From the IMG/VR virus record IMGVR_UViG_2558860226_000001, positions 1-64,000 of that record: a stretch of DNA of 64,000 nt. One strand, written 5' to 3'. Below are positions 9,836-51,972 of this stretch, in pieces. Position 1 is the stretch's first letter; every line of letters starts with the position of its first letter. This stretch comes from a virus. Lineage: Duplodnaviria > Caudoviricetes. Both the position numbers and the translations under genes were made by a program. The notes below the pieces were generated by a model. The model was not told the origin of the DNA. It ran no database searches and saw nothing but the letters and a program-made list of their open reading frames with translations.

Positions 9836-9911
<76 letters not shown>

Positions 9912-10659: not shown

Positions 10660-12492
10660 CTAGTGTTTCAATGCATGAAAGATTTTTTCTGCCAGCGCAT
10701 GTGAAATTCCCGGTACGTTGGCAATGTCCTCCACACTTGCATTCATCAGCGGCTGTAACCCCCCCATGTACTTCAGCAAAATCTGACGTCGCTTAGGCCC
10801 TACTCCTTCGATAGTCTCCAGAGAACTGGTGCTTTTGACCTTGGCGCGCTGTTTACGGTGACCACTGATAGCATGATTATGTGAATCGTCGCGAATATGC
10901 TGAATCACATGTAATGCTGGTGAATCAGCGGGCAAGGCCACACCCTCGCCTGTCGCTTCAAAAAATAGCGTCTCAAGCCCAGCCTTACGATCACTACCTT
11001 TCGCAACACCCAACAGTAAAGGTCGGGATGTATCCCACGGTACCTGCAATGATGCAAAAACACCCTTGGCCTGCGCCAGTTGCCCTTTTCCGCCATCGAT
11101 TACAATTACATCAGGAATCTTATCTTCGTCAATTGACTTACCATAGCGACGTCTCAGCACTTGATTCATTGCTGCATAGTCGTCCCCTGGTGTGATACCG
11201 GTAATGTTGTAGCGACGATATTCCGAGCGTACTGGCCCATCTGCATTGAACACAACACAGGAGGCCACCGTCTGCTCTCCCATAGTATGGCTAATATCAA
11301 AACACTCCATACGCTTGATTTTTTCAATGCCAAGCACCGATGCTAACGCCGTCAGACGTTGCTGGATAGTCGACTGTTGTGACAACTTCGTCGTTAGTGC
11401 TGTATGGGCGTTGGTACGCGCCAGTTTAAGGTAGCGTGCGCGGTCACCCCGAGGACGGGTTTGAATCTGAATTTTACGGCCCGCCTGATCGGTTAGCGAC
11501 TCAGCCAGCAACTGATGCTCAGGCAAAGAAAAATCCAGCAAGATTTCAGACGGTAGGGTACGAAAAACACTGCCTTGCAAATAGAACTGCCCCACAAATG
11601 TCTGCACCACTTCCGCCAGCTCAGTCCCACCAGGAACTTTGGGAAAATAGCTGCGACTGCCCAGAACCTTTCCCTGACGAATAAAGAGCACATGCACACA
11701 TGCCATGCCAGCATCGAAGGCCACGCCGATTACGTCAAGATCATCACCATCGCCAGAGACAAATTGTTTTTCAGTGACACGGCGTACAGCCTGAATTTGA
11801 TCACGGATACGTGCGGCCTCTTCAAACCTTAATTTACTGCTCGCTGTTTCCATACGGTCAATCAATCGGGTTAGCACCTGCTGATCTTTGCCTGACAGAA
11901 AAAGACGCACATATTCAACCTGTTGTTGGTACTCTTCATCACTAACAAGGCCACTGACGCAAGGTCCAAGGCAGCGACCAATCTGATATTGCAGGCAAGG
12001 GCGAGAACGGTTGCGGTATACGCTATTTTCACACTGACGGATAGGGAATAGTTTTTGTAATAACATCAGCGTTTCACGAACAGCATTGCCATTAGGAAAC
12101 GGACCAAAATATTCGCCTTTGGCGTGTTTGGCACCACGGTGAACAGACAACCGGGGATGCTCATCCCCACTGAGGAAAATCATCGGGTATGACTTATCAT
12201 CACGTAACAACACGTTGTAACGTGGCTGATAGCGTTTGATATAGTTGTGCTCAAGTAATAGAGCCTCGGTTTCAGTATGCGTGATCGTCACATCGATCTG
12301 CCGGATACTTTTCACCAAAGCCTCTGTTTTACGGCTAGCAACATGAGCACGAAAATAACTTGAAAGGCGTTTCTTCAGATCTTTGGCTTTACCGACGTAG
12401 ATAACCGTGTCGCTAGCATCATACATACGATAAACCCCAGGCTGACTGGTTACAGTCTTCAGAAAAGCCTGGGCATCAAAACGTTCAGTCAC
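10660..12492 (-). CDS. uvrC: Excinuclease ABC subunit C
   Basis: GIY-YIG N-terminus ([18 protein letters not shown]), ECFDISH, DGGKGQL, C-terminal HhH. Confidence 0.98.
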
Positions 12493-13141
12493 TACTAATC
12501 AATGTCTCCGCATTAAAGAGTCCATGTCGAATCGCCAGATGCGTTAGTTCAACATCACCATTGATGTTTAGTTTATTAAACATTCGGTAACGATAACTAT
12601 TGACCGTTTTTGGGCTAAGGTTGAGTTGATCAGAGATCTCTGTCACTTTCTGCCCTTTAGTGATCATGATCATAATCTGCAATTCACGCTCAGAAAGACA
12701 CTCCAACGGTGTTTCTGTCTGTGGCTCCAACTGACTCAATGCCATTTGCTGGGCGATATCCGACGCAATATATCGCTTACCGGCATGTACAGAGCGAATG
12801 GCACAGATTACCTCTTCTGGCGTGGCTCCCTTGCTAAGGTAACCTGCCGCGCCTGCCTGCATTACTTTAGCAGGTAATGGGTTCTCTGTGTAAATAGTTA
12901 GCACTATAACTTTAATTTCAGGGGAAAATCGTACAATTTTGCGTGTTGCCTCCAGGCCGCCAATTCCTGGCATGTTCATATCCATCAACACAACGTCCAC
13001 ACTGTTATTACGGCACCATTTGACCGCATCTTCACCGCACTGAGCCTCACCAACAACCTTGAGGCCTTTAATATCGTCAAGAATGCGCCGTATCCCTGCT
13101 CGCACCAGTTCATGGTCATCAACAAGAAAAACGCTAATCAA
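12485..13141 (-). CDS. uvrY: Response regulator UvrY/GacA/ExpA
   Basis: REC + LuxR HTH; TTG start with GGAG SD; overlaps uvrC start as in the conserved uvrY-uvrC operon. Confidence 0.96.
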
Positions 13142-13781
13142 AGAACAATTCTCCAAAAAGAGTAACACTTGCAGACAATTCCATTGCAGGTGATACTACG
13201 TGGTTTCGAAAAAATGAACACACTTTTCAATTAGAAGTGTATTTTTATTCTACTGTATGGTATTATCATAAGAGCCTATAAATGATACCTACCGCGCATC
13301 ATCCAAAGAACTTACTCCCATCACAGTATTCATGTTTCAAACCTGGTTTTTTAGAGAAACAGACGTGTCGAACGTCTAAAAATAGAAAATTTAAATTTAA
13401 TCAATGAACTATAAAAGCTTGCACCTGCATCCAATCAGGCCAGCAACAACTATCATCTATTGTAACTGTCTTGTCGCTTTGCTGCACTGGCTATTTACTA
13501 CAAATAATACACCTCTTCCAAAATATCCATATAAAAATTGCAAGGTGTCTACTCAAACGCATTTACAATGCCAAACGCATATTGATCAAATATGGGCAAA
13601 ATGTGGCATAAACAGATAAAAACAAGGCGATTTTATGGCCTGATGGGGCTAATTTCTTCACCAGACGCATTGTAGTTCATGGTATAATAAGACCAATTTT
13701 TGTTATGTCACCAACTGTATCATGGTGCAGAACCAATCCCAGGGCCCATTGCATCGGCTTGCGTTTGTTAAAGGAGATACT

Positions 13782-14006
13782 ATGAACAATAATGACTTTC
13801 CAACAGCCTCCACACCAGAAACACTGGCTCATGAAGCCAGTTGCATGAAGGTATTGATGACGTTGATACTAAAATCTATCGGCCAGGCTGATGCAGGCAA
13901 AGTTATCATTAGCATGGAAAAATACTCAGCACAACTGGAAGACCCTGCTCAGGCAGAAATATTTAGTACCACCATTAATCAAATCAAAACTGTTTACCGC
14001 CGCTAA
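13782..14006 (+). CDS. yecF: YecF (DUF2594) family protein
   Basis: SCMKVLMTLILKSIGQADAGKVI...QIKTVYR; divergent from uvrY; AAGGAG SD. Confidence 0.85.
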   Translation: MNNNDFPTASTPETLAHEASCMKVLMTLILKSIGQADAGKVIISMEKYSAQLEDPAQAEIFSTTINQIKTVYRR

Positions 14007-16668: not shown

Positions 16669-17313
16669 TTAACCTTTATAAAATGTTCCATCGTTGAATG
16701 GGTATGCATCATCAGCAAATCCAAAATACGGAGGGGCAATTTGTGAAATATTTAACTGAACACCACTTGGCACCGGAACCACATTATAATCCGTCAGGAT
16801 TGATTTTTCATATGGTGCCAATGCAAATTCGAATGTTATGCCGATCGTCATATCTCGATAATTGACGCAATACGCACGTCCACGACCAGCAAATAACATA
16901 ACCAGAAATTTGTTTATCTCCGGTATTGTAGCAATGCTAATATTAGAAAACGCCTTGCACATTATTAGTGTGCGATAGGCATCATCAGACAGTCTGACTG
17001 ATGTGGTTTCCTGAACACCTGCATAAAATGGTGAATCATTAAATGGTAGTGGATAATCTGATGCCCCCGCATTGGACTCATAGAATCCAAACGCATCACT
17101 ATCGATTGGCGCAGTTATATACCTGCCTATTCCTACTATTTTTCCCCACACGTCTAATCCATAAGACTCATTAGCAGTCAAATCCCACACTTTATTGATA
17201 AATTCATTGGTAAACTCATCAATACTCACGGCCTGATTAAATGTGTTGATGATAGATAACAATGCAGTACTGTTTGCGTACTGCGCGTATATTGTCGATT
17301 CCCAATTATTCAT
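16669..17313 (-). CDS. Baseplate protein (DUF2612-like)
   Basis: YAQYANS..GLDVWGKIVG..LSDDAYR; between baseplate J and fibre. Confidence 0.82.
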   Translation of the reverse strand: MNNWESTIYAQYANSTALLSIINTFNQAVSIDEFTNEFINKVWDLTANESYGLDVWGKIVGIGRYITAPIDSDAFGFYESNAGASDYPLPFNDSPFYAGVQETTSVRLSDDAYRTLIMCKAFSNISIATIPEINKFLVMLFAGRGRAYCVNYRDMTIGITFEFALAPYEKSILTDYNVVPVPSGVQLNISQIAPPYFGFADDAYPFNDGTFYKG

Positions 17314-18545
17314 ACAAGATTTACCGTAATGTCAGAATCCTGAATTGTTGGTATCTGATCAATCCCCATTGTAACCGAGGGTGCATACGATGACCCGGTC
17401 AGAGATATTTCAATTGATAACACGCTAACCGTGTCGGGCGATATGGATATCACCGGAGCATAGTATTTACCGGCGTTAATCGATGCGCCGATTCGTGCCT
17501 TTCCTATTCCCTCATACCCTCCGGTAAAAACAGTGGTTACCATGTTTTTTACCAGTTGCGTAATGTTGCTAGGAGGGTTTAGTGTGCTATCAATATTGAC
17601 AGTAAAATACACTCGCGTTGGCGAGGCTTTTTGCCATTGCATCACATATTCAGGATATGGAGTTCCATAGTTTGTGCTGTCATAAACAGTATATGTAGTA
17701 TTGCCATTCATGTCAGCGCCGGGGTTGTAGGTTTTGAATATAGCATTAGCTACATCACTATCAGACCCCCCATAAGCGCAAATATAAATAGAATGCCCCA
17801 ATACATGAAAATTTGTTGTCCCTTTATTCACTACGCTGGCGGTTCTGTTTGACCACACATAGGCATCAAGGACGCCATTCACCTCAAGCACGGCAGATAA
17901 TACAGCTCCATCCATATTTCTTGCGTTTCTCGCCACAGATTCCTTTCGGCGATATTCAAAATTAGCTCTTGATTCCTCAAGACTGCCAAGCACACCAGCA
18001 GAATTGTTAATAACGCCAGACCATCCGGGGACTGCCTGATAAATCGCAGTTAGCGCACCAATCGGGCAGGCAATCGCACCAGCGGTTTGGTTTTGGAAAA
18101 TCACCGACACGGTGCCATCAGATGATATTGTTGCCGCCGATGTTGATGCATAAATGTAGCCGTTAACATCCTGAGCCAGACTCCCGGCAGGAATAATAGT
18201 ACCGACCAGCCCTGAGCATGTAGCAGTTACCGCCGTTCCGGTGGCGGCGATTCGCTCCATGAAATAAACGCGACCAATAGCGTCCTGAAATCGCCCGGAT
18301 GCATAGTCAGGATTGATTTGATTTACTATTGCCAGTAGCTGATCGTTTTTATCAGCAATGATTGCCGAATCTGATACGGATATTTGCCCTTGCGGGGTTG
18401 ATAAATCCTGACTCATTGCGCTACCGAGCGCAGTAGAAAAGTCCGTGATGCGACCCGATAAAATATCTGCCTCATCTGGAACAGCTAACCCGGATGTTGA
18501 AAATGACACTGACGGGACGGAGGTTTCTATTGTCGTTGTTGCCAT
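17310..18545 (-). CDS. Baseplate J-like wedge protein
   Basis: TPQGQ, PDYASGRFQDAIG, ESRANFEYRR. Confidence 0.87.
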   Translation of the reverse strand: MATTTIETSVPSVSFSTSGLAVPDEADILSGRITDFSTALGSAMSQDLSTPQGQISVSDSAIIADKNDQLLAIVNQINPDYASGRFQDAIGRVYFMERIAATGTAVTATCSGLVGTIIPAGSLAQDVNGYIYASTSAATISSDGTVSVIFQNQTAGAIACPIGALTAIYQAVPGWSGVINNSAGVLGSLEESRANFEYRRKESVARNARNMDGAVLSAVLEVNGVLDAYVWSNRTASVVNKGTTNFHVLGHSIYICAYGGSDSDVANAIFKTYNPGADMNGNTTYTVYDSTNYGTPYPEYVMQWQKASPTRVYFTVNIDSTLNPPSNITQLVKNMVTTVFTGGYEGIGKARIGASINAGKYYAPVISISPDTVSVLSIEISLTGSSYAPSVTMGIDQIPTIQDSDITVNLV

Positions 18546-18551
18546 ATTCAC

Positions 18552-18911
18552 TCACATATTTACTGTTGATGTGGTTCCGTTCGTGTCCACAATAGTTATT
18601 ACGCCATATGATTGGCGCTTCTGTTGATCATTTATGATTGTGGCTTGTGCTGTTGATACATAATCCAGCCTCATAGCCTCATTCTGCAAATAAGATTGAA
18701 TAAGACCGGAACCCGGAATAAATCCCATAATTTGGGTATTGTACGGGATGCCTATTGTGTTGTCATATACACACTCACCGAGATATAAACTACAGGCTGT
18801 AGCCACATCCTGTGCGACGGAATAGGGATTGTTTACAACGGCGAGGTTACCAGAATCATCCAGCTGAATATCCCACGTATCAGAATTGAGTGATAATGTC
18901 CTGTTTTGCAT
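18552..18911 (-). CDS. Baseplate wedge / sheath initiator (gpW/gp25-like)
   Basis: WDIQLDDSGNLAV..SVAQDV..GEC.YD..GIPY; directly upstream of J. Confidence 0.75.
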   Translation of the reverse strand: MQNRTLSLNSDTWDIQLDDSGNLAVVNNPYSVAQDVATACSLYLGECVYDNTIGIPYNTQIMGFIPGSGLIQSYLQNEAMRLDYVSTAQATIINDQQKRQSYGVITIVDTNGTTSTVNM

Positions 18912-19527
18912 TTGCTACCCTCCTGAATGCATAGGTGTCGATTCCATCTCTACCTAGCTCTGTTTCTGTTTTGCAGTGATCGACGCATTCAAACCCGTTT
19001 TCCAAAAACCATTTTCGTAAACCTACGTCAGTGAAATACCAAATGTGTTCGTCTTTCCTGAAATGTCGAGATTTTAAAATATGCTCAGCATTATCAAAAA
19101 TAGGGATGGATACGAAAACCCACTCTGTAGCCTGAGATATGGCCTGTTCTGGGTTGTCTATATGCTCCAGCACATCCCAAAATGTTAGCGCGGAAGCCTT
19201 TTCATTGTAGATATCATGAAATTTCCCGTTTTTATGCAGCCATTCTACACCAGCTGGATTAACGTCAAACCCCTTAGCGTTTTCGCACTTTGATACAAAC
19301 TGACCGCACCCAATCCCCACATCGACAACATCACCGGCGTGGTACTTTTTTACAAAATTGATGCGGAATTTTGTTAACTCTCGTCCCATTTCAGTGCTTG
19401 CCATTGATGCATATTTTGAGAAATAACCTTCATCATATGGCCTGTTTTTTGGTACAGGGTAGTGACCTATTCCCAGCTCAGGGAAAAATGACAATTCACT
19501 ATTAATGAGTTCACAAATTTTTTTCAT
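18880..19527 (-). CDS. Class I SAM-dependent methyltransferase
   Basis: VVDVGIGCGQF, GFDVNP, FWDVLEHI, EHIWYF motifs. Confidence 0.88.
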   Translation of the reverse strand: MKKICELINSELSFFPELGIGHYPVPKNRPYDEGYFSKYASMASTEMGRELTKFRINFVKKYHAGDVVDVGIGCGQFVSKCENAKGFDVNPAGVEWLHKNGKFHDIYNEKASALTFWDVLEHIDNPEQAISQATEWVFVSIPIFDNAEHILKSRHFRKDEHIWYFTDVGLRKWFLENGFECVDHCKTETELGRDGIDTYAFRRVANAKQDIITQF

Positions 19528-20395
19528 TTAACCATCCGGTTATTTTCTCTGTCAGGTTTGAAATTCTTTTATCGCAATTGTGTTTCATCTCCTGACACAT
19601 GCAGTAATTGTCAGGGTATACAAACAAGCATTGACTCAAATCCATAATAGATGCATCTGTTATGCGCGAGTGATGATTACTACCACCACAACCACCACCA
19701 ATAAAAATCATTTTGGTGCGATATGCTAACGCCGCTTGAGATATGAGGCATGGGCCCGTCACGACAATATCAGCGTGGTTTACCAGTGCCATTAACTCGG
19801 TGATTTTCAATTCACCATTATGCAATTTCAGATCGGCATATGGTTCTAAATCTGGTATCCACTCCGCGCCCGGAACTGTATCCGCCACACTGACGCAAAA
19901 ATAGCCGCGTCTGTGCAGTAATTTCGCGGCGGCATCGATATTTTTATTCAATGGCCCACGCGATTTGTGATGCCATTCTGACCGCTCTGTTGTGGGTCGG
20001 ATTAACGCTATTTTTCTACCTTTCGGCAATCCGATGTCAGGCAGCGCGAATTTTGGTAAATCGAACCCATCAGGCTCGCAGCCAAAAACGCGTCTGGCGG
20101 CTGAAAATATCCCACCGGGCCGCATCAGGTCAGCATTGCCATAGAATATTCTTCTCGACTCCATCTGAACTGGAGGGAGTTGAACATATCTGATAGTTGA
20201 TGATTGCTCATTTTTACGCTGAGTGCGCAATGTGGTATCTGAGCGGATGAAATTGACGTTCGGCAGATCGGAATAAAATTCAGGGATGGAGGTTTTTAGG
20301 TAAATCTCTCGCGTTTGGCATAACCGCTTGATAAACGCTCGCTGAAATATGTTGTCCCCTATCCCCTGCATACCGTCGATGTAGAGTTTTTGCAT
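19511..20395 (-). CDS. GT9-like (heptosyltransferase-type, GT-B) glycosyltransferase
   Basis: GMQGIGDNI N-terminal motif; LKITELMALVNHADIVV..AALAY C-terminal motif. Confidence 0.72.
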   Translation of the reverse strand: MQKLYIDGMQGIGDNIFQRAFIKRLCQTREIYLKTSIPEFYSDLPNVNFIRSDTTLRTQRKNEQSSTIRYVQLPPVQMESRRIFYGNADLMRPGGIFSAARRVFGCEPDGFDLPKFALPDIGLPKGRKIALIRPTTERSEWHHKSRGPLNKNIDAAAKLLHRRGYFCVSVADTVPGAEWIPDLEPYADLKLHNGELKITELMALVNHADIVVTGPCLISQAALAYRTKMIFIGGGCGGSNHHSRITDASIMDLSQCLFVYPDNYCMCQEMKHNCDKRISNLTEKITGWLNEKNL

Positions 20396-20931
20396 AACGA
20401 TAATTGTTCCTCAAAATTCCCGGTCGGGAAGGCATTCAGTTCTGTATGTCGGGAGCAGTTGATCACCTTGGTTTTTCCCATGCGAGCAGATGCACGCAGG
20501 AAATCATCGTGCCAGCGCCGCACAAGGTTTATATCGGGGTTTTGTAACACTCCAGAGTGATCGCTATGCCAGTGCATACCGTTGGATAGCGAACAGTCAT
20601 AACCGATCAGTAGAATGCGCGTCGCGCCAAGGTGCTTTGCTAGCAAGATGGCCCGTTGCCCGGAATTAAAGCCGCCTTGTAGTTCTGGCGGGAATAGCCG
20701 CAAGCCAAACAATGCCGAAGTGGTTTCGTTTGAAGCCCACCGCATAGCATCTGAACGTATGATTTTGTGGTTTTGCTCCCACCATTCATGGTCACCGGCA
20801 TAAATATGGTGGCACTCTGGTATCAATGACCATGAGTTGTTAACTGCAATAATTTGGCAGCCAGAGGCCGCCGCAAGTCGGCAGTCATTGGCTGTTAGCG
20901 ATGGCCCGGAGGCAATGCATATAAAGTTCAT
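20359..20931 (-). CDS. Maf/DUF115/sialyltransferase-like transferase
   Basis: IASGPSL, IIAVNNSW, NSGQRAILLA.HLGA.RI.LIGYD, HWH, VINCS motifs. Confidence 0.62.
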   Translation of the reverse strand: MNFICIASGPSLTANDCRLAAASGCQIIAVNNSWSLIPECHHIYAGDHEWWEQNHKIIRSDAMRWASNETTSALFGLRLFPPELQGGFNSGQRAILLAKHLGATRILLIGYDCSLSNGMHWHSDHSGVLQNPDINLVRRWHDDFLRASARMGKTKVINCSRHTELNAFPTGNFEEQLSLCKNSTSTVCRG

Positions 20932-20938
20932 AGGCAAT

Positions 20939-20960
20939 AAAAAACCCGCCGGAGCGGGTT
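20939..20960 (-). terminator. Intrinsic terminator after doc
   Basis: aacccgc-N4-gcgggtt with U-tract on the minus strand. Confidence 0.75.
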
Positions 20961-20985
20961 GGGTGTGATGATGTCGCGAGTAAGC

Positions 20986-21471
20986 TCAAGGCTGATTTAC
21001 GCCGCCACGTTGCTGCAATATATCGGAGATCGACATGTCAGATGGATGGCAAAGTTCACGTGAATCATAAGTCCGCGACCAGTAAGCAAGCCAATCTTCC
21101 AATTCTCTACAGGTGTACGTCTTGCAGGCCAGCCCCTCAGCCATAGTGACAATGTCATCACCCGGTGCCGTCAGCTCGTAGCCATTGATTAGCAAAAATA
21201 TATAACCACCCATCATAGCCGTACGCTTGTTGGCGTTCGCAAACGGGTGATTTTGTATCAGGCTTTCAATAAGAGCCGCGGCCAAGACAAACATGTCATC
21301 TGTTTGCTGATAATATCTCGTCAGGCTTGGTCTGGATTGCGATGAACTGAGATTGTTTGGATTGAGAACGCAAACAGGCTCGGATGGTGTTTGCGCCTCA
21401 ATCAAACTTTTATTGATAAAAATCAGATCATCTTCGGAAAGGTAATGAACTCCATCAATAAACTCGGCCAT
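20986..21471 (-). CDS. Doc (Fic-family) toxin
   Basis: QNHPFANANKRTA Doc-type motif. Confidence 0.88.
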   Translation of the reverse strand: MAEFIDGVHYLSEDDLIFINKSLIEAQTPSEPVCVLNPNNLSSSQSRPSLTRYYQQTDDMFVLAAALIESLIQNHPFANANKRTAMMGGYIFLLINGYELTAPGDDIVTMAEGLACKTYTCRELEDWLAYWSRTYDSRELCHPSDMSISDILQQRGGVNQP

Positions 21472-21480
21472 GCGTGTGCT

Positions 21481-21660
21481 TTACACCTTAGAGAGATCTT
21501 CCATCGCCTTTTCGTAACGAGCAAAACCAAAAGCAAAGGCGTTCTTTACCTGATCTGCGTGTGCGCAGTCGCTTCCCATTGCCGCACGTGGAGATGCCAC
21601 CACGCCTTTGTCACGCGGGGGGATGTACAACCGCTCGGACTTTCTCAGTGCGTGACTCAT
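21481..21660 (-). CDS. Small putative antitoxin for Doc
   Basis: 59 aa, 9 bp upstream of doc, C-terminal helix FARYEKAMEDLSKV; AGAGG SD. Confidence 0.6.
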   Translation of the reverse strand: MSHALRKSERLYIPPRDKGVVASPRAAMGSDCAHADQVKNAFAFGFARYEKAMEDLSKV

Positions 21661-22178
21661 AATATAAACCTCTGTAATTACTAACAATATTGTGTAATCC
21701 ATTAACATAAGACCACCAGTGCGCGCCATTCACTACAGCCCAATGGTTAGAATGACCTGTAATGCATCTAGTAATCTTAGGGCTAAGTTTATAGTAAACA
21801 CCGAGTCAAGCCATGGTTTACTTTCACAGGCAAACAAAAAAATCAATAGCGCATAATCAAATCCCCATTTGTACAAGGGATTTCATTAACCTGGCTCAAT
21901 CATAGTTAGCAATCGGTCTGACGCCACACAAATGAAGTGCGTAGACAAAAACTCGCGTTAGGTAAAGACTGATCGCCTGTACAGGGTTTATTTGTAATCA
22001 ACCATCAAAAGGTGCGGTTCTCGTTTGCGTTTTACAAAAAAAATATGATTCTTGCGTTGCGCGGTTAACCATTTTCGGTCAAGCTTTGATTTAACAAGTA
22101 AAGGTTTTGATTTGCCAAATCCAGTAGCTAATCTAGTACGCGCAAAACGAAAGGACTCCCGATCATTGTGGGGGACAT

Positions 22179-22811
22179 ATGCAAACAGCAGCTAAGAATA
22201 CAACTATGCCATACATGATCCCGGAAGCGGACTTCGACAGAAAGCTCAGCGTTATCAAAAACAACATCGAGCATACCAGCTCTTTTTTGCAAAAAGGCAT
22301 AGAGGATTTCTCGTTGCCGGGCTTTGTTGTGCCATTTGGCTATCGACTGGTTAAATCTCGTGATAACGAACACTACCGACTGATTACTGATTCGCAAGAT
22401 TCAGAAACCGTTTACGCCGTTAAACTGCTGTTTCGGCATGACATCATAAACGCTAAAAAAACATGCACGCAGATATTGGTATGGCGAACCATTCAGGCCC
22501 AGCATGACAGTGCCGTCCGAGGTCTTCCCCAAGTTTTCTTTGAGTTTTTTTTAGAAAGCTACTCGATTGTCGTATCTGATGAAGAGCAAACTCCTGATGG
22601 ACGCCGCTTTTGGGAACGAATGATTTCGTGGGCCATGTCTGCAACTGGATATCATGTATATGTATCAGATGGCACGCAAGAATCGCGTCCGTTGACATTT
22701 ATGACATCATGGGACGACTTCTATACTACGTGGTCTGAATTCTGCTGGGGTCATGACAAAGAGTGTCATCGCCACAGGCTGCTAGTGATCAGCAAAGACA
22801 AGCTGCACTAA
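22179..22811 (+). CDS. Hypothetical moron protein, possibly GNAT-like fold
   Basis: 210-aa ORF with SD and own terminator; VSDEEQTPDGRRFW motif. Confidence 0.7.
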   Translation: MQTAAKNTTMPYMIPEADFDRKLSVIKNNIEHTSSFLQKGIEDFSLPGFVVPFGYRLVKSRDNEHYRLITDSQDSETVYAVKLLFRHDIINAKKTCTQILVWRTIQAQHDSAVRGLPQVFFEFFLESYSIVVSDEEQTPDGRRFWERMISWAMSATGYHVYVSDGTQESRPLTFMTSWDDFYTTWSEFCWGHDKECHRHRLLVISKDKLH

Positions 22812-22820
22812 TCACCAAAC

Positions 22821-22842
22821 TAAACCCGGCTTGCCGGGTTTA
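22821..22842. terminator. Intrinsic terminator
   Basis: taaacccgg-N4-ccgggttta. Confidence 0.75.
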
Positions 22843-22865
22843 TTATTGTCATTCAAATAACCTTG

Positions 22866-22894
22866 TTGACGCCCAGATCACTATCAGCTACATT
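22866..22894 (+). promoter_or_regulatory. Sigma70 promoter of C4-like cassette 1
   Basis: TTGACG-N17-TACATT. Confidence 0.65.
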
Positions 22895-23008
22895 CTGTGT
22901 CACGAGGCGTAGAAACCTCTCCAAAAGCGGTCCTAACCAACCCCGATAGCGTTGGATTTTTTATGCCTGTCATTCAGTGGGCGCAGTGCGCGACCACACC
23001 CCGAATAA

Positions 23009-23093
23009 TGTCGGGAGGGCAACGAATACAACACCCAGCAATGGGGAATAAGTTCGCGGTATCTTTTGGGCCGTTTCTAACCTCCCGACACCA
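23009..23093 (+). ncRNA. C4-type antisense RNA 1
   Basis: 10-bp closing stem tgtcgggagg/cctcccgaca + CCA; inner AATACAACACCC..GGGGAATA; loops complementary to leader tagaaac/ccaaaag. Confidence 0.72.
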
Positions 23094-23108
23094 CACCATC
23101 TGTGGTAA

Positions 23109-23138
23109 TTGACAATCTAATTAATTTCAGAATATAGT
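23109..23138 (+). promoter_or_regulatory. Sigma70 promoter of C4-like cassette 2
   Basis: TTGACA-N18-TATAGT. Confidence 0.65.
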
Positions 23139-23222
23139 TCCGTCAGGTGCTCAAAACACCACAAACAGCGGATACCGCACCCGATAGACTTGCGGATTTT
23201 TTGTGCCTGAATTTTGGATATA

Positions 23223-23303
23223 TGGCCGGGCGTGCGGCTAATACAACACCCGAAAGGGGAATATGCCCGCCGACTGTTTGCGGTTTTGAGCGCCCGGCCA
23301 CCC
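23223..23303 (+). ncRNA. C4-type antisense RNA 2
   Basis: 10-bp closing stem tggccgggcg/cgcccggcca; same inner motif; loops complementary to leader gctcaaaac/caaacag. Confidence 0.72.
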
Positions 23304-23337
23304 TACGCAACGCCGGTTATTGCCCATCACATTAATC

Positions 23338-23574
23338 CTATTGTTTTGGCGTTTGCTGCTTCTCAATTAACAACTTTAACCCTTCTAGTGATCTAGCAAT
23401 CTCAGTAAGACTACCCGCAGGATTAGTGGTAAACGCGGCCTCAACCCACGCCTCTAAGGCGGCAACAATTTCAGCGTTTATGGATCTCTTATTCCTTTCT
23501 GCAAGAGCCGCCACCTTCTCTTTTAATTCCGGATGGATTCTGACGTTGAACTGTGGATTTCTAGGTGCTGACAT
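23338..23574 (-). CDS. Arc/Mnt-family ribbon-helix-helix repressor
   Basis: PQFNVRIHPELKEKV...NKRSINAEIV. Confidence 0.88.
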   Translation of the reverse strand: MSAPRNPQFNVRIHPELKEKVAALAERNKRSINAEIVAALEAWVEAAFTTNPAGSLTEIARSLEGLKLLIEKQQTPKQ

Positions 23575-23600
23575 AAAAATTACCTTGCTCAAATATTGAG

Positions 23601-23654
23601 TTGACATGATAGCCCACGGATACTAACATTTCAACATTGGTAGCCACTGGCTAC
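23601..23654 (+). promoter_or_regulatory. Antirepressor promoter with palindromic operator
   Basis: TTGACA-N17-TAACAT; GTAGCCA-C-TGGCTAC palindrome at 23640-23654. Confidence 0.6.
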
Positions 23655-23726
23655 TAACACGACGAAGCCCCAACTACTTGCGATAGCTGGGGCCTCTAAT
23701 TTGCCAGTAACCTGTGAGAAACCGAC

Positions 23727-24623
23727 ATGAAGAGTATGGCAAAAGTAAATGCTGATATCACCATTTTTAAGTTTGACGATAGAGATATTCGCGTTGTGAT
23801 GAAAAAAGGTGATCCTTGGTTTGTTGCCGCGGATTTATGTGACGCCTTGAATCTGACTAACTCCCGCGTTTCGCTTATGGCTCTGGATGATGATGAAAAG
23901 GATGTAAGTTTAATTTACACCCGTGGAGGTCGGCAGATAATGTCTGTTGTTAGTGAGTCTGGCATGTACACACTGATTCTTCGCTGTCGTGATGCTGTTA
24001 AACCCGGAACCGTTCCGTATCGCGTTAGAAAATGGGTCACTGCTGATGTTTTACCATCAATCCGTGAAACTGGGAAATACACTAAAAATTACGAAGATAT
24101 CGAAAAGACTACTGTTGATGACCGCACCCCGCTGCGCAGCTTAGTAAACCGGATTATGGGTAAGTACGGCATCCCATATCAGCCCATCTACAAAATGATC
24201 CACCGAGAATTTGGCGTTAACCATATCGATGAGCTTTCGCCAAAACAGGCAGCAGAAGCGATGGACTATTTGGCCGCAAAGGTCATAGAGGGTGAATTCC
24301 TCGGCAAGCAATCTCTACCAGCAACACCTCCATCACCAGCGCTTACCGTGCAGGAAATGAATCGTCTGGTGTGGCTATGGGATTACGCCAACCGCTCACA
24401 GGCCATTTTCAGGGAGCTAATGCCAGTCATGCAGCAATTGCAATCCTCGTATCATGGGGTGTGCTGCGATTACGGATATGAGTTCTCAGCAATCCTGTCA
24501 CTATCGCGTGACGCTGTGCTGAAGCTGACCAGTGGCGTAGATGTTCAGGCGCCCAGCGACTCAATAAACATATCAGCATGGATCAGGCTAAAGAATAACG
24601 AGCTACCGGCAAGACTGCGTTAA
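23727..24623 (+). CDS. Bro-N antirepressor with P22 Ant-like C-terminus
   Basis: PWFVAADLCDAL..VSESGMYTLILRCR..KWVT..VLPSIRETGKY; LVWLWDYANRSQ. Confidence 0.88.
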   Translation: MKSMAKVNADITIFKFDDRDIRVVMKKGDPWFVAADLCDALNLTNSRVSLMALDDDEKDVSLIYTRGGRQIMSVVSESGMYTLILRCRDAVKPGTVPYRVRKWVTADVLPSIRETGKYTKNYEDIEKTTVDDRTPLRSLVNRIMGKYGIPYQPIYKMIHREFGVNHIDELSPKQAAEAMDYLAAKVIEGEFLGKQSLPATPPSPALTVQEMNRLVWLWDYANRSQAIFRELMPVMQQLQSSYHGVCCDYGYEFSAILSLSRDAVLKLTSGVDVQAPSDSINISAWIRLKNNELPARLR

Positions 24624-24703
24624 CTTGGAATTACTCACAGACCACGCTGCGCAGGGACGCGCAACAAAAAACCGATGGTCGGGCTATAGATATTAAAAGT
24701 TTA

Positions 24704-25084
24704 TTATGCTGCCTTTGCTTTCATTTCTTCTATTTTTGCCAGCATTCTTTCAACCACAGCTATAGAAGTGATGGCCTCTGATGCACTAATCGTTTCGTCA
24801 AGCTTGTAATCAGCCCGTTTTCTTTGCATTTTTTGCTGCTTCAAAACAGCGCCAAGTTGAACTAATGCAATGAACTCAAACGGCTCATTTTTTCTCCTGG
24901 CATCTTTGGTGAGGTATTCAACAACACCATCATGTGTAGTTGGAGGGCAATGGGTAAGTATTCCGCAAGTTTCATGGTAAAAGGCATAATAAGCACGAGA
25001 AATCGCGCTTCTCAATCCAGATTCGGTTCCAGAATCCAAGCAGGATTTTGCGGCAGAGACAAAATCTTTCCCTTTTATGCTCAT
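24704..25084 (-). CDS. HEPN domain protein
   Basis: RSAISRAYYAFYH...H...RKRADY; ATGA-coupled to upstream gene. Confidence 0.82.
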   Translation of the reverse strand: MSIKGKDFVSAAKSCLDSGTESGLRSAISRAYYAFYHETCGILTHCPPTTHDGVVEYLTKDARRKNEPFEFIALVQLGAVLKQQKMQRKRADYKLDETISASEAITSIAVVERMLAKIEEMKAKAA

Positions 25085-25851
25085 GATGCTGAAATCTCCG
25101 TTTCTATGTTTCCTCGATACCAAGCTGTAAGATTTTTGCTTGCAAAAGAATCATTTGTTGCCAGCGCAATTGCAATGTCTATATCCATGTTAGCCAGCTT
25201 CTCCGCATCATCGCAAAGAACATTGCAGATGATCGCAGCATCTCCATCATCACTAGTGTAGTAATCATGTGATGTTGCTAATGCGTTGTGATTTTTTGCG
25301 ATGGTTGAGGCAATAAGCGAAAGAGATTTTAGCTCAGACGGATAAAGGCTTGTAACCTCTATAAAATCTTCTAATTGCTTTTTCTTATTTAAAACATCCA
25401 TTTGCATTTCATTGCGCTCATTATCATCACTTATCATGGATATGGCCTTCCTTGCAAAAAATAATGTAAGCTCGCCATCGCCATCAGCATACGCGGCGTT
25501 TCTTGCCGTAATGCATAGATTAAAGCTGTTTATTTCACGGCCAAGCCTTACCGCTTCATTTTGATAATCCTCAAAATGACCAGTATGCCCAAGATAAGTA
25601 AGATAATTCTGTGCTGAGATCTCGTCACGATATGATGCTGCTTCTTTGAAAAATGAAACCGCCTTTTCGTGTTGTGCTGCAGCTCCGTAAGCCAAAGCCG
25701 ATATCATCAGCTTTGTTGGCTCATCTTGAATCTTTTCAACATCTGATAGAACGCGCTTAAGAGTAAAAGCGTCCAGAATGCTACCGGTCTCTATGTGAGA
25801 GATTAGCATTATCGTAGTGTCACGAAATCCTTTTTTTTGTGTCTGAGCCAT
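25081..25851 (-). CDS. Hypothetical helical (TPR-like) protein, partner of HEPN
   Basis: 256 aa with GGAGGG SD; ALAYGAAAQHEKAVSFFKEA TPR-like segment. Confidence 0.7.
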   Translation of the reverse strand: MAQTQKKGFRDTTIMLISHIETGSILDAFTLKRVLSDVEKIQDEPTKLMISALAYGAAAQHEKAVSFFKEAASYRDEISAQNYLTYLGHTGHFEDYQNEAVRLGREINSFNLCITARNAAYADGDGELTLFFARKAISMISDDNERNEMQMDVLNKKKQLEDFIEVTSLYPSELKSLSLIASTIAKNHNALATSHDYYTSDDGDAAIICNVLCDDAEKLANMDIDIAIALATNDSFASKNLTAWYRGNIETEISAS

Positions 25852-26004
25852 TTAACCCCTCCCTATTCCACAAACTTAGCATTAGGAAGGGGAACCAACA
25901 ACCTGTTGTTTTATTCATGATTGCTGCCAACCAATGATTTCCCCACATGATTACTCAATACTGCATCAGTAACAGTATTGGTGCGGTCTCGATGTCTGCC
26001 GATG

Positions 26005-26649
26005 TTAAACCCTGAGTGACTTTTTCCAGTCATATTTCAATTGTTGCAGGTTCCAGCACGACTTAGCTATATCAACAATCGCAATGCGCGAGTTAGGGTC
26101 AAGCCCCGGCGCGTCTTGCAATCTCGTTACGACTTCATCTAGCGGAACGCCAATTGACTGTTGCCCTGCGGCACGCTCGCATATCGTGCGCACTGCATAA
26201 TCTATGTCAGATTGCTGATAGGGATTTGATGACAGCAGGTATTGATAGCGCATCTGCAACTGCTGGCTGTATTTTGTAATGGATCGGTTGTCCATGCACT
26301 CCTTGCTTGCCTGACAGTCTTTCTCTTTTTTGTCGGCAGCTTGTTTTTCTTTTTCATCAAATTCACGGATGCCGTTATCAAACGCGGACAGATAAGCGGT
26401 GTGGTAACAATTCTTATCCGTCCCGCACTTGCTGGTATCAGCTGTCAAATTGCTGCCCGTATGAGAAAGATAATCTTGTTTCAGCTCTTTAACCGATTTA
26501 TACCATGTCCTTCCGTGACCATTGGGCCAAAATTCTTTTACTGGCTCATACGTTTCCGATTCAGTCCTTTGATACTCTTTTATTTGCTCCGGCGTCATTG
26601 CGCATCCAGCGGCAGACAATGCAAGTAACAGCACGATTTTTTTATTCAT
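26005..26649 (-). CDS. Putative lipoprotein
   Basis: MNKKIVLLLALSAAGC lipobox; several Cys; coupled to spike gene stop. Confidence 0.75.
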   Translation of the reverse strand: MNKKIVLLLALSAAGCAMTPEQIKEYQRTESETYEPVKEFWPNGHGRTWYKSVKELKQDYLSHTGSNLTADTSKCGTDKNCYHTAYLSAFDNGIREFDEKEKQAADKKEKDCQASKECMDNRSITKYSQQLQMRYQYLLSSNPYQQSDIDYAVRTICERAAGQQSIGVPLDEVVTRLQDAPGLDPNSRIAIVDIAKSCWNLQQLKYDWKKSLRV

Positions 26650-27251
26650 TATTGCGGCCCTGAGGTTAGCGATCCCCCCGATTGTACGCCGCCATGAGCA
26701 TGATTTTCCACTGATATATTACCCGCCCTAATGTCTCCCGCGGCGGTAATTGTGCTGGTTGTTGTCACCGGGCCTATAATGTGCATTCCATTAGGAGCCA
26801 TGATAGTGATACCACCATCAGCGAATTCGATATACTGCGTGGGTGTAGGGTTCAGTAACCCGATTCCGCCGAGGTATACCGCGTCAGCAAGGTTGTGCTC
26901 TCTTTTGCTGCCGGGGATGGCTTGCGCCCCACTGCTTTTAACCAGACTGATATCCCGGTCACAGACCAAAATCAGCCCAACATCACCCACAGACGGATTC
27001 ATGATTACCGCGCTTTGCCCATGCTGTAACCGCATAAACGGAACGTTGTAAATCAGGTCTGTATCGTTGATTTTTTTACCGGACGCATCAACAGGATTAA
27101 CAAACCGCCTTACCGTCAGGGTCGAGCCTGTAATAGCGGTCACCTGAGCCAATTCGACAAATGAGCATCTTGATAGCATTTGCCGAAACACGAACGCCAG
27201 CGAATTGCCCTCACACGATATATCTGCCGGGGTTTGATTGATCGGATTCAT
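26649..27251 (-). CDS. Baseplate spike (gpV/gp138-like)
   Basis: P.VGDVGLILVCDRDIS; C-terminal HAHGGVQSG metal-tip motif. Confidence 0.88.
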   Translation of the reverse strand: MNPINQTPADISCEGNSLAFVFRQMLSRCSFVELAQVTAITGSTLTVRRFVNPVDASGKKINDTDLIYNVPFMRLQHGQSAVIMNPSVGDVGLILVCDRDISLVKSSGAQAIPGSKREHNLADAVYLGGIGLLNPTPTQYIEFADGGITIMAPNGMHIIGPVTTTSTITAAGDIRAGNISVENHAHGGVQSGGSLTSGPQ

Positions 27252-50891: not shown

Positions 50892-51704
50892 TTAACTGGT
50901 AACGCGCCTCAAATTAATCTCTGCAGTTGATTCCGCCTGATGACACGCCGAAACGAGCCGCTCATACATCGGTTTTACATGGCGTGACCATGTCGGCTGT
51001 GATATCTCAACGCCAGCGGCACATAGCGCCCTGCGGACGCTCTCAGCTGGCAATCGAGAGTATCCAGTGCCGTGGCACCGCTCACATTCTTTTGTCACCG
51101 GTATTCCGCCATTTATCGCTGTAGCCCGCTCATCAATCACAATTCCGCGTCCACGGCACCGGCATGAATTACTGACCAACCCCCTTCCTTTGCAGGTCGG
51201 GCATTGCACACGGACTATCTCGCGCCGTTCGTGAGTAACATTGCAAGCTAGCGGTTTATCCAGCATTTCGATTTTCGGCATAGCATCAATGACGCGTTTT
51301 CCATACGCCGCCTTCAGACTGAACACCTCCACGTCGATAAACCCATCATCGCAGTCAGGGCAACGCTTTACGCTTGCAGCACTACGCGCATAGTCATGAT
51401 ATGCAAATGTTGCGAGCAATTGCAGCGCTCGCAGTTTACTATCTGCATCGAGTTCTGAAAGAGGTTTGCAGTGTCCCGCCAGACTTTTTGCAATCTCTAT
51501 CAACCCCTCAATGGCTTTATCAGGGCTGCTTACCCCGATTTTAGCGAGAAACAAATCCATCCCAATGCCGCTAGATTGGTGACTCATGCCGATAGCGGCC
51601 ATCACATCACTGATACCTAATCTGTCGCTTGCTGTTGCCGGTGATTCGTCGGAGAGTTTTGGTGATTTCGGCGAGAAAAATTTAGGAATTGATTCTAGAT
51701 TCAC
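50892..51704 (-). CDS. Late antiterminator Q (Cys-rich type)
   Basis: NLES..KFFSPKS..DVMAAIG..DYARSAAS; CxxC clusters; end of nin region. Confidence 0.87.
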   Translation of the reverse strand: MNLESIPKFFSPKSPKLSDESPATASDRLGISDVMAAIGMSHQSSGIGMDLFLAKIGVSSPDKAIEGLIEIAKSLAGHCKPLSELDADSKLRALQLLATFAYHDYARSAASVKRCPDCDDGFIDVEVFSLKAAYGKRVIDAMPKIEMLDKPLACNVTHERREIVRVQCPTCKGRGLVSNSCRCRGRGIVIDERATAINGGIPVTKECERCHGTGYSRLPAESVRRALCAAGVEISQPTWSRHVKPMYERLVSACHQAESTAEINLRRVTS

Positions 51705-51972
51705 TTGGATTTCCTCCGCTCTGGATATGCATCCCATGACTGATAATGCGCCGGTTTAACCGCCGGAATTATTGGTGCAAACAAAGTCAGAATGTAAGGA
51801 AGATATTTCATGATTTATCACCCTTGTTCAGTGAGTATCGATTGATAATTTCCCGGCGGCGCTCATTTTTCCACTCAATCGACTTTTCATGATCGGATAT
51901 TTCTTTTTCCAGTCTAAGTAATTCCGCTGTCACATGCGTAGGGATTTTATCGATCATAATCCACCTCGGTAT

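What the first reader, a model, noticed from the sequence alone, without database searches (positions are those of the whole stretch)
18880..20960. Transferase + GT9-like + methyltransferase triad wired into the baseplate operon: candidate virion or LPS glycosylation system
Seen: three overlapping genes (Maf/DUF115/sialyltransferase-like, heptosyltransferase-like, SAM methyltransferase). The last overlaps the baseplate wedge gene by 32 bp. An intrinsic terminator sits 8 bp before the first ATG, leaving no room for a promoter, so expression should depend on Q-antiterminated late transcription. Known: GT9 enzymes use ADP-heptose, related CMP-sugar transferases use Kdo or nonulosonates, and virion glycosylation is documented in mycobacteriophages. 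Inference: late enzymes that build a methylated, LPS-core-like glycan on virion proteins from host precursors. Alternatives are late remodelling of LPS so that progeny do not adsorb to debris, or DNA modification.
Basis: partly seen in the sequence, partly recalled or inferred. Interest (0 to 1): 0.8.

Follow-up and report, generated by a model that had tools for sequence, protein, structure and literature searches.

The report
Portable phage late-operon glycosylation gene trio
Three overlapping late genes of an enterobacterial prophage encode two sugar-transferring enzymes and a methyltransferase; the same trio travels between many phages of Gram-negative bacteria (D3 and PAJU2; P1 carries relatives of gene 1 only) and probably puts a small methylated sugar on virus-particle proteins, but its target has never been tested.

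Summary
Three translationally coupled minus-strand genes at 18880-20931 overlap by 37 and 17 bp, and the last overlaps the gp25-like baseplate wedge gene by 32 bp. A real intrinsic terminator lies just upstream.

AlphaFold models give clear folds:
- g1: a minimal Maf/CstII (GT42-like) transferase.
- g2: a GT9-type GT-B enzyme, tied between the protein heptosyltransferase TibC and the LPS enzymes WaaF/WaaC. It carries an invariant CxCx4HxC knuckle.
- g3: a class I SAM methyltransferase.

The baseplate position is not typical. In 83 related loci the trio sits mostly between Q and holin (43) or between lysis and terminase genes (20). In D3-like phages it lies in the head module. In two relatives with the same tail module it sits after baseplate J instead.

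What is constant is co-orientation inside the late operon, with no promoter seen. The terminator is better read as the 3' end of the adjacent phd-doc moron.

The acceptor is unknown. I favour virion proteins (about 0.4) over LPS, DNA or other targets. No paper on the cassette was found. This scan has already met the same cassette in three other genomes.

The parts
20359..20931 (-). g1: 190-aa minimal Maf/CstII-like (GT42-like, DUF115) glycosyltransferase. Probably uses a CMP-activated ulosonic acid.
   Evidence: phrog_4603 2.6e-52. PF01973 31.2 bits, below cut-off. AF2 pLDDT 91.6. VIA Z 14.7 to Maf 5mu5 (174 aa aligned) and 12.6 to CstII, against 10.9 and 10.6 for pyrophosphokinases. Motifs ASGPS, N-S-G, G-Y-D and HxH conserved in 79-83 of 83 loci.
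19511..20395 (-). g2: 294-aa GT-B glycosyltransferase of the GT9 (heptosyltransferase) type, with a C-terminal CxCx4HxC metal-knuckle motif.
   Evidence: phrog_6804 3.9e-79. AF2 pLDDT 95.4. VIA Z 18.4 TibC, 18.2 GT9 3tov, 17.5 WaaF, 16.1 WaaC; the next GT-B enzymes score 10.5 or less. Invariant G11, G13, D14, C265, C267, H272, C274. Motifs present in 83 of 83 loci.
18880..19527 (-). g3: 215-aa class I SAM-dependent methyltransferase (Methyltransf_23).
   Evidence: PF13489 45 bits against a cut-off of 27. phrog_6564 2e-79. DxGxGxG in 81 of 81 loci. ESM Atlas neighbours are all Methyltransf_23. Fused to g2 in P0077.
20937..20960 (-). Intrinsic terminator (7-bp stem, 4-nt loop, T-run) directly after doc and directly before g1. 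Read here as the 3' end of the phd-doc moron; it would insulate the triad from that moron's transcription in the lysogen.
   Evidence: sequence.
20986..21729 (-). phd-like antitoxin (21481-21729) and Doc toxin (20986-21471): the neighbouring moron upstream of the triad.
   Evidence: Fic/DOC 2.8e-11. TIGR01550 DOC_P1 126 bits. phrog_577 and phrog_2208.
18552..18911 (-). gp25-like baseplate wedge gene, overlapped by g3 by 32 bp. Followed by baseplate J (17310-18551), DUF2612 (16669-17313), tail fibre and Tfa.
   Evidence: phrog_120 2.6e-29. Pfam Baseplate_J, DUF2612, Collar and Caudo_TAP.
50892..51737 (-). Q-like late antiterminator of the same prophage. Inferred to drive read-through of the whole minus-strand late operon, including the triad.
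   Evidence: phrog_127 1.5e-82. Holin, endolysin and spanin lie at 47999-49555 downstream.

Best explanation
The triad is a self-contained, horizontally mobile three-enzyme cassette of tailed phages of Gram-negative bacteria. It has no promoter of its own and is transcribed only as part of the late operon.

In this prophage, Q-modified RNA polymerase is expected to read through the phd-doc terminator, then through g1-g2-g3 and into the baseplate genes.

Inferred mechanism: in the cytoplasm late in infection, g2 (GT9/TibC-like) transfers a heptose from host ADP-heptose. g1 (Maf/CstII-like) transfers a CMP-activated ulosonic acid. CMP-Kdo is the only such donor every host has, and the cassette encodes no sugar-nucleotide synthesis. 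g3 then methylates the product.

The most likely acceptor is one or more of the phage's own virion proteins. This would give progeny particles a small methylated O-glycan, as in the glycosyltransferase + O-methyltransferase sets of mycobacteriophages.

Shown: gene structure, folds, conserved catalytic motifs, cassette portability, late-operon embedding.
Inferred: donors, order of action, acceptor, benefit.
For: **Folds.**
- g2: Z 18.4 to TibC, a protein O-heptosyltransferase, with rmsd 2.8 A over 253 residues. The whole GT9 group stands far above other GT-B enzymes.
- g1: the best match is Maf, a flagellin nonulosonate transferase, at Z 14.7. CstII follows at 12.6.
- For both glycosyltransferases the top-ranked solved match is a protein-modifying enzyme, although for g2 this is a tie with LPS-modifying GT9 enzymes (see evidence against).

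**Conserved motifs.**
- The GxGD motif (D14) lies where I place the catalytic Asp of WaaC and TibC. TibC Asp-110 is named the catalytic base in PMC4358343; the correspondence rests on motif position and was not aligned here.
- The invariant CxCx4HxC knuckle lies in the C-lobe, where TibC has its 4-Cys iron finger needed for substrate recognition.

**Cassette behaviour.**
- The trio is conserved in 78 of 80 IMG/VR loci, in D3, PAJU2, Mulvp2 and Eowyn, and in 30 bacterial species. Wherever enough flank was available (about 26 of the 30), phage late-gene markers lay beside it, on the same strand.
- Slots differ: Q|holin, lysis|terminase, the head module after the capsid gene in D3-like phages of beta-, gamma- and alphaproteobacteria, and baseplate.
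- Portability across hosts and morphotypes fits an acceptor that travels with the phage.
- A g2-g3 fusion exists (P0077).

**Expression.** Terminator upstream, no promoter, and overlapping start and stop codons through to the wedge gene.

**Localisation.** All three proteins are soluble; maximum 19-residue hydropathy is 1.4 or less.

**Precedent.** Tandem glycosyltransferases plus an O-methyltransferase modify capsid and tail tube in cluster O mycobacteriophages (Freeman et al. 2023, as summarised in PMC11600133).

**Weak hint.** The PAJU2 depositors label the g1 homologue 'structural protein'. The basis of that label was not checked.
Against: - There is no direct evidence for any acceptor.
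- g2's match to TibC is tied with LPS heptosyltransferases: 3tov 18.2, WaaF 17.5.
- g2 lacks TibC's N-terminal beta-barrel.
- Most copies lie in generic moron slots, not in structural modules. In 12 loci the neighbours are DNA-modification genes.
- Host phages have unrelated capsids and tails, so no common acceptor protein is evident.
- No known Kdo transferase has a GT42-like fold.
- The P1 relatives pmgO, pmgP and pmgQ are dispensable for plaque formation (PMC10695390).
- g1 here has no Shine-Dalgarno sequence.
Confidence: 0.42

Rival explanations
1. LPS or envelope remodelling. The enzymes add heptose, Kdo and a methyl group to the host LPS core, either late (so progeny do not re-adsorb to debris) or as conversion in the lysogen.
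For: - GT9 is predominantly an LPS-core family. g2 scores Z 17.5 to WaaF and 16.1 to WaaC, within about 1-2 of TibC.
- The presumed donors are LPS precursors.
- All hosts found are Gram-negative, apart from two short MAG contigs.
Against: - The terminator and the lack of a promoter argue against expression in the lysogen.
- The cassette is not next to int/att and has no membrane component.
- The hosts belong to widely separated groups (Pseudomonas, Enterobacterales, Bordetella, Caulobacterales, a cyanophage), whose LPS cores differ as far as I know. One acceptor specificity could therefore hardly serve them all.
- Late synthesis leaves little time for LPS export (inference).
Confidence: 0.2
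2. DNA hypermodification. The cassette decorates phage DNA with a methylated glycan just before packaging, to evade restriction.
For: - In 12 of 83 loci the triad lies directly next to ParB_N + TAGT (PF20691) or DAM-like + GNAT genes, in the lysis|terminase slot.
- Phage GT-B enzymes that put Kdo or heptose on 5hmC have been reported (bioRxiv 10.1101/2023.12.21.572611).
- Late expression fits Mom-type enzymes (established knowledge).
Against: - The 100.8-kb record has no thymidylate-synthase-like hydroxymethylase and no C5-methyltransferase; a TET/JBP search also found nothing, but its control rang nowhere, so that absence is not shown. The same inconclusive TET search found none in five TAGT-bearing records. 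No known acceptor base is therefore made.
- g3 is Methyltransf_23, not a DNA methyltransferase family.
- g2 is GT9-like; no T4 beta-GT structure appears among the matches listed.
- About 70 loci lack such neighbours.
Confidence: 0.12
3. Another acceptor: a host protein or a small molecule. Examples would be a flagellin, a pilin or an autotransporter. Alternatively g1 may act as an MptE/TPK-type pyrophosphokinase rather than a transferase.
For: - Maf and TibC both act on host surface proteins.
- g1 also resembles HPPK and thiamin pyrophosphokinase at Z about 10-11.
- Its Pfam hit is to MptE-like.
Against: - The pyrophosphokinase matches cover only 119-133 of 190 residues, against 174 for Maf.
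- No conserved host partner gene lies nearby.
- Late timing leaves little time for an effect on host surface structures.
Confidence: 0.2

Closest known systems
Pseudomonas phage D3 orf6.5/7 + orf12 + orf13, and PAJU2 ORF010-012 (true homologues, uncharacterised)
   Same: The same three protein families (g1 32-47%, g2 40-42%, g3 46% identity), co-oriented in the late operon.
   Different: In these phages the genes lie in the head-tail connector region of HK97-type siphoviruses. In D3, g1 is separated from g2-g3 by three genes. No function has been assigned.
Phage P1 PmgO/PmgP/PmgQ (P7 HdmB/HdmC)
   Same: - PmgO and PmgP are DUF115-like relatives of g1 (37% identity).
- They lie next to the gp25-like baseplate gene 26, behind a late promoter.
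   Different: - P1 has no g2 or g3 homologue.
- PmgQ, annotated as a glycosyltransferase in the P1 record, shows no BLASTP similarity to g2.
- The P1 operon also has C1-controlled promoters.
- The P1 genes are dispensable in the laboratory.
TibC/AAH bacterial autotransporter heptosyltransferases (BAHT; PDB 4rap, 4rb4)
   Same: - Best structural match of g2: Z 18.4, rmsd 2.8 A.
- Reduced four-stranded N-lobe (my reading of the secondary structure).
- An Asp at the position where I place the catalytic base (by motif position, not aligned here).
- A Cys-rich metal motif in the C-lobe.
   Different: - 15% identity.
- g2 has no N-terminal beta-barrel.
- No beta-hairpin thumb is seen.
- The metal motif is CxCx4HxC rather than Cys-339/342/358/370.
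- No autotransporter substrate gene is present.
Maf flagellin nonulosonate transferases and CstII (GT42)
   Same: Best fold matches of g1. The N-S-G...G-Y-D segment aligns with CstII T-S-G...G-I-D (not significant by sequence alone).
   Different: g1 is only the 190-aa catalytic core. It lacks Maf's flanking domains and CstII's lid and membrane-association region.
Mycobacteriophage virion glycosylation genes (Freeman et al. 2023)
   Same: Glycosyltransferases plus an O-methyltransferase, encoded together in the phage, that modify capsid and tail tube proteins (as summarised in PMC11600133; genomic position and timing of expression not checked here).
   Different: - No homology to those enzymes was tested; whether their glycosyltransferase families differ is my assumption.
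- The hosts are Gram-positive-type, so different sugar donors are likely (inference).
- Function is shown experimentally there, not here.

Membership tests
GT9 heptosyltransferase superfamily (Pfam PF01075) | GT-B two-lobe fold closest to solved heptosyltransferases | tested here: met
   Z 16-18.4 to TibC, 3tov, WaaF and WaaC. Other GT-B enzymes score 10.5 or less.
GT9 heptosyltransferase superfamily (Pfam PF01075) | Sequence score above Pfam's gathering threshold | tested here: not met
   The window protein has no PF01075 hit at E < 0.01. Homologues P0077 and P0101 are just above threshold: 22.9 and 23.5 bits against 22.
GT9 heptosyltransferase superfamily (Pfam PF01075) | N-terminal catalytic Asp, and a basic residue of the KxWP-type diphosphate-binding motif | tested here: inconclusive
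   GxGD (D14) is invariant in 83 of 83 loci. R146-G-P148 aligns with WaaF K-R-W-P in the profile alignment. Equivalence is inferred from position only.
GT9 heptosyltransferase superfamily (Pfam PF01075) | Uses ADP-heptose as donor | not testable with these tools
   Needs an enzyme assay.
BAHT family (TibC/AAH) | N-terminal beta-barrel domain | tested here: not met
   g2 residues 1-294 align to TibC 96-392 only. TibC's barrel is residues 1-97 (PMC4358343).
BAHT family (TibC/AAH) | Four-Cys iron finger inserted in the C-lobe | tested here: inconclusive
   An invariant C265, C267, H272, C274 knuckle lies at a comparable place, but with different spacing and ligands.
BAHT family (TibC/AAH) | Adjacent autotransporter substrate gene | tested here: not met
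   The neighbours are doc and baseplate genes.
Maf / GT42-like sialyltransferase fold (Pfam PF01973, DUF115) | Fold similarity to Maf and CstII over the whole domain | tested here: met
   Z 14.7 (174 of 190 residues) to Maf and 12.6 to CstII.
Maf / GT42-like sialyltransferase fold (Pfam PF01973, DUF115) | Pfam score above the gathering threshold | tested here: not met
   31.2 bits against 34.6. Precomputed Pfam lists PF01973 for many homologues.
Maf / GT42-like sialyltransferase fold (Pfam PF01973, DUF115) | Flanking substrate-binding domains of full-length Maf | tested here: not met
   g1 is 190 aa and matches Maf residues 273-520 only.
Class I SAM methyltransferase (Methyltransf_23) | Pfam score above threshold, and the DxGxGxG SAM-binding motif | tested here: met
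   45 bits against 27. Motif present in 81 of 81 loci.
Phage 5hmC/5hmU DNA glycosylation systems | A phage-encoded enzyme that makes the hydroxymethyl-pyrimidine acceptor (TET/JBP, ThyA-like hydroxymethylase, C5-methyltransferase) | tested here: not met
   None in the 100.8-kb record. The TET control rang nowhere, so that single search is weak.
Lysogenic-conversion (O-antigen/LPS) modules | Own promoter, expression in the lysogen, membrane components | tested here: not met
   No promoter-like site, a terminator upstream, and soluble proteins. Expression itself was not measured.
Virion glycosylation systems (mycobacteriophage type) | Glycan demonstrated on capsid or tail proteins | not testable with these tools
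   Needs virion mass spectrometry.

The most novel reading that the evidence does not exclude
Tailed phages of Gram-negative bacteria, including D3-like phages (and perhaps, through the g1 paralogues PmgO/PmgP, P1-like ones), routinely O-glycosylate their own virion proteins. They would use a heptose/Kdo-type methylated glycan, built from host LPS precursors by a portable three-enzyme cassette. This would be a previously unrecognised, widespread virion modification. It could affect adsorption, particle stability or recognition by antibodies.
Probability: 0.35. Interest if true: 0.8.

Novelty: new variant of a known kind. Interest (0 to 1): 0.58.

Why it matters
Virion glycosylation has been shown experimentally only for mycobacteriophages, where it weakens the neutralising-antibody response. 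A compact cassette is present in at least 548 IMG/VR contigs and in prophages of Pantoea, Erwinia, Citrobacter, Bordetella and Pseudomonas, among other genera (gene 2 relatives also appear under Klebsiella, Salmonella and E. coli names). If it does the same job with LPS-type sugars, this would matter in several ways:
- It would change how phage particles of Gram-negative hosts are viewed, including their immunogenicity in therapy and their surface chemistry.
- It would assign a function to long-unexplained genes of D3 (orf12/13).
- It would add a protein-directed branch to the GT9 and GT42-like enzyme families.

If the target is instead LPS or DNA, the cassette would be a new late-acting receptor-masking or anti-restriction device. 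In either case the question can be tested directly with existing laboratory phages.

Tried and rejected
- **Nucleotide searches.** Megablast of 18500-21500 against phages and against E. coli genomes found nothing.
- **Sequence searches of PDB.** Single-sequence phmmer gave no meaningful hits for g1 or g2. Profiles gave only WaaF at E 0.003 for g2, and non-significant CstII at E about 1 for g1.
- **NCBIfam.** No family for g1 or g2.
- **P1 partners.** PmgP and PmgQ are not homologues of g3 or g2 by BLASTP. PmgP is a second DUF115 paralogue.
- **Longer fused forms of g2.** None found, which is weak evidence.
- **BFVD fold search.** Only generic viral GT9-like proteins.
- **Sialic-acid-type donor made by the element.** There is no NeuB in the record. 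The host chromosome was not available: the 'own genome' is a 100.8-kb virus record.
- **Literature.** Searches for pmgO/P/Q, PAJU2, phage heptosyltransferase and capsid glycosylation found no functional study of the cassette.
- Synteny therefore came from the search for related loci plus my own ORF calling.
- **Idea rejected.** I considered that the terminator is a regulatory element of the triad. It sits exactly at the end of doc and fits a moron terminator.
Full report
**Setting**

The window holds two prophages on either side of a short host island.
- The host island comprises tRNA-Leu/Cys/Gly at 9642-9911, then pgsA, uvrC, uvrY and a DUF2594 gene up to about 14006.
- Positions 1 to about 9000 are the tail end of a P2-like prophage.
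- From about 14.7 kb to beyond 60 kb lies a lambdoid prophage with a contractile tail, whose late genes all run on the minus strand. In order they are:
  - Q-like antiterminator 50892-51737, holin, endolysin and spanin at 47999-49555;
  - terminase, portal and head genes, sheath and tube;
  - tape measure 32841-34820, Dit-like 28398-29270, hub 27248-28102, gpV-like spike 26649-27293;
  - an accessory stretch;
  - gp25-like wedge 18552-18911, baseplate J, DUF2612, tail fibre and Tfa.
- The tail operon is full of inserted accessory genes: Ant-like, HNH-Ant, regulators, two plus-strand genes, and a phd-doc toxin-antitoxin pair.

**Checking the observation**

The three ORFs are as described.
- g1 is 20359-20931, g2 is 19511-20395, g3 is 18880-19527.
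- Overlaps are 37 bp (g1/g2) and 17 bp (g2/g3).
- g3 overlaps the wedge gene by 32 bp. That gene has a strong AGGAGG ribosome-binding site.
- The hairpin AACCCGC-TCCG-GCGGGTT plus T-run lies at 20960-20937 on the minus strand. It follows the doc stop codon and ends 7 nt before the g1 ATG.
- No promoter-like site lies between them. g1 has no Shine-Dalgarno sequence.

I read the terminator as the 3' end of the phd-doc moron. Its effect would be to keep transcription from that moron's promoter out of the triad and the baseplate genes in the lysogen. The triad itself has neither promoter nor terminator, and is translationally coupled through to the baseplate genes.

**What the proteins are**

Sequence methods alone are weak.
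- g1 scores below the Pfam cut-off for MptE-like/DUF115.
- g2 has no Pfam hit.
- g3 is a clear Methyltransf_23.
- All three fall in PHROG families at E 1e-52 to 1e-79.

AlphaFold models built on 50-54 homologues are confident: pLDDT 95.4 for g2 and 91.6 for g1.

g2 is a GT-B enzyme.
- Its only strong structural neighbours are heptosyltransferases: TibC Z 18.4 (rmsd 2.8 A over 253 residues, TibC residues 96-392), Veillonella GT9 18.2, WaaF 17.5, WaaC 16.1.
- Every other GT-B enzyme scores 10.5 or less (Foldseek).
- These top scores are tied. The fold therefore says 'GT9-type' but not 'protein-directed'.
- g2 keeps a GxGD motif at the position where I place the catalytic Asp of WaaC/TibC, and an RxEW...RGP segment that aligns with WaaF's KRWP.
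- It has an invariant CxCx4HxC motif near the C-terminus, present in 83 of 83 loci.
- TibC has a four-Cys iron finger inserted in the same lobe, which is needed for assembly and substrate recognition (PMC4358343).
- The spacing differs, and g2 lacks TibC's N-terminal barrel, so g2 is not a BAHT member in the strict sense.

g1 is a bare catalytic core.
- It is closest to the central domain of the flagellin nonulosonate transferase Maf (Z 14.7, 174 of 190 residues), then to CstII/Cst-I sialyltransferases (about 12.5).
- Pyrophosphokinases match at Z about 10-11 over shorter stretches.
- The conserved N-S-G...G-Y-D segment aligns with CstII's T-S-G...G-I-D (not significant on its own).

g3 has the DxGxGxG SAM motif, and only methyltransferase neighbours in the ESM Atlas.

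All three proteins are soluble.

**The cassette elsewhere**

Homologues of g2 occur in 29 phage records: D3 and its relatives, PAJU2, Enterobacter phage Mulvp2, Klebsiella jumbo phage Eowyn, and a Synechococcus phage. They also occur in at least 548 IMG/VR contigs.

- In the 80 best IMG/VR loci, g1-g2-g3 are adjacent in that order in 78.
- After annotating the flanks, the slots in 83 loci are:
  - 43 between a Q antiterminator and the holin;
  - 5 before the lysis genes, with Q not seen;
  - 20 after the spanin and before terminase;
  - 2 in the baseplate;
  - 13 other or truncated.
- D3, PAJU2 and Mulvp2 carry the cassette among the head-tail connector genes.
- Among 30 bacterial species, about 26 loci with enough flank show phage late-gene markers beside the cassette. 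In Bordetella, Castellaniella, Cellvibrio, Alcanivorax, Methylophaga and Phenylobacterium the order is terminase - portal - about 2.3 kb - g1-g2-g3. That is just after the capsid gene, as in D3.
- Four loci have the permuted order g2-g3-g1.
- One protein (P0077) fuses g2 and g3.
- L004 and L005 carry the same tail module as this window (J and wedge 58% identical), but with the trio between J and the DUF2612 gene rather than before the wedge gene.

Phage P1 has two g1 paralogues (PmgO, PmgP) beside a different glycosyltransferase, PmgQ. They lie next to its gp25-like gene 26, behind a late promoter. These genes are dispensable for plaque formation (PMC10695390).

The constant features are the trio itself, co-orientation within the late operon and, in this window, the absence of any promoter-like site. 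The baseplate position is an exception. These 80 loci are the ones closest to the query, so the slot counts are biased towards enterobacterial lambdoid phages.

**Mechanism and target**

The cassette encodes no sugar-nucleotide synthesis, and the record has no NeuB. It must therefore draw on donors the host always has. For a GT9-type and a CMP-ulosonate-type enzyme in Gram-negative hosts these are ADP-heptose and CMP-Kdo. This is an inference.

I favour the phage's own virion proteins as acceptor, for five reasons:
- The top-ranked solved structure for each transferase is a protein-modifying enzyme.
- The cassette moves freely between hosts from widely separated groups, whose LPS cores I expect to differ, which fits an acceptor carried by the phage.
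- In the taxonomically widest lineage the cassette sits in the head module.
- Expression is late and cytoplasmic.
- Mycobacteriophages provide a tested precedent of glycosyltransferases plus an O-methyltransferase modifying capsid and tail tube.

The case is far from closed:
- g2's match is tied with LPS enzymes.
- Most copies lie in generic moron slots.
- The carrier phages share no obvious acceptor protein.

**Rival explanations**

LPS remodelling fits the family and the donors. It is hard to square with the lack of lysogenic expression signals, the soluble proteins and the range of hosts.

DNA hypermodification deserves mention for two reasons.
- In 12 loci the trio abuts ParB_N + TAGT (PF20691) or DAM-like + GNAT genes.
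- Phage GT-B enzymes that put Kdo or heptose on 5hmC have been described.

Against it:
- This prophage encodes no ThyA-like hydroxymethylase or C5-methyltransferase, and a TET/JBP search found none, though its control rang nowhere.
- Five TAGT-bearing records also lack TET (the TET control was uninformative).
- g3 is not a DNA methyltransferase family.
- g2 is not T4 beta-GT-like.

The adjacency most likely reflects shared use of the lysis|terminase slot.

**Novelty and earlier notes**

I found no paper that studies this cassette. The scan's own records show the same trio noted in three other genomes, with the same reading.

What this window adds:
- a baseplate-embedded copy;
- proof that within a single tail lineage the cassette occupies two different junctions;
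- the ParB_N-TAGT / DAM-GNAT neighbourhood as a concrete basis for the DNA rival.

Noticed in passing
window 9642-14006: A host island lies between two prophages: tRNA-Leu/Cys/Gly, pgsA, uvrC, uvrY and a DUF2594 gene. This is the enterobacterial uvrY-uvrC-pgsA-tRNA locus. A P2-like prophage tail end lies on the left (1 to about 9000) and the lambdoid myovirus prophage on the right.
   Followed up: partly
window 20986-32229: The tail operon is interrupted by many accessory genes. These include a phd-doc toxin-antitoxin pair with its own terminator, two plus-strand genes (phrog_1349 at 22179-22811 and Ant at 23727-24623), an HNH-Ant fusion (29325-30572), and regulators between the tape measure and Dit-like genes. 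Relatives L004 and L005 have tape measure and Dit directly adjacent.
   Followed up: partly
window 47239-47628: A short (129 aa) N6/N4 DNA methyltransferase fragment sits between the spanin and terminase genes. It is probably a truncated remnant, in the same slot that holds the triad or DNA-modification genes in related phages.
   Followed up: no
L007:2111-3899, L023:11002-12303 and ten similar loci: ParB_N-like + TET-associated glycosyltransferase (PF20691) pairs, or DAM-like + phage GNAT genes, lie right after the triad and before terminase. No TET/JBP gene was detectable in five of these phage records, although that search's control rang nowhere and one record is only 64% complete. If TET is truly absent, these would be TAGT systems whose acceptor base is unexplained.
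   Followed up: partly
L090, L105, L107, L113; protein P0077: Variants of the cassette: a permuted gene order g2-g3-g1 in four bacterial genomes, and a 505-aa natural fusion of g2 with the methyltransferase.
   Followed up: no
L084 (phage P1 78078-82150): P1's pmgL-pmgQ operon carries two DUF115 paralogues, a Ser/Thr phosphatase and another glycosyltransferase. It starts back-to-back with baseplate wedge gene 26, which echoes the wedge-gene adjacency seen in this window.
   Followed up: partly
window 20929-20943: g1 starts 7 nt after the T-run of the doc terminator, with no Shine-Dalgarno sequence. Its N-terminus is 3-4 residues shorter than the family consensus. The phd-doc insertion may have trimmed its translation start.
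   Followed up: no
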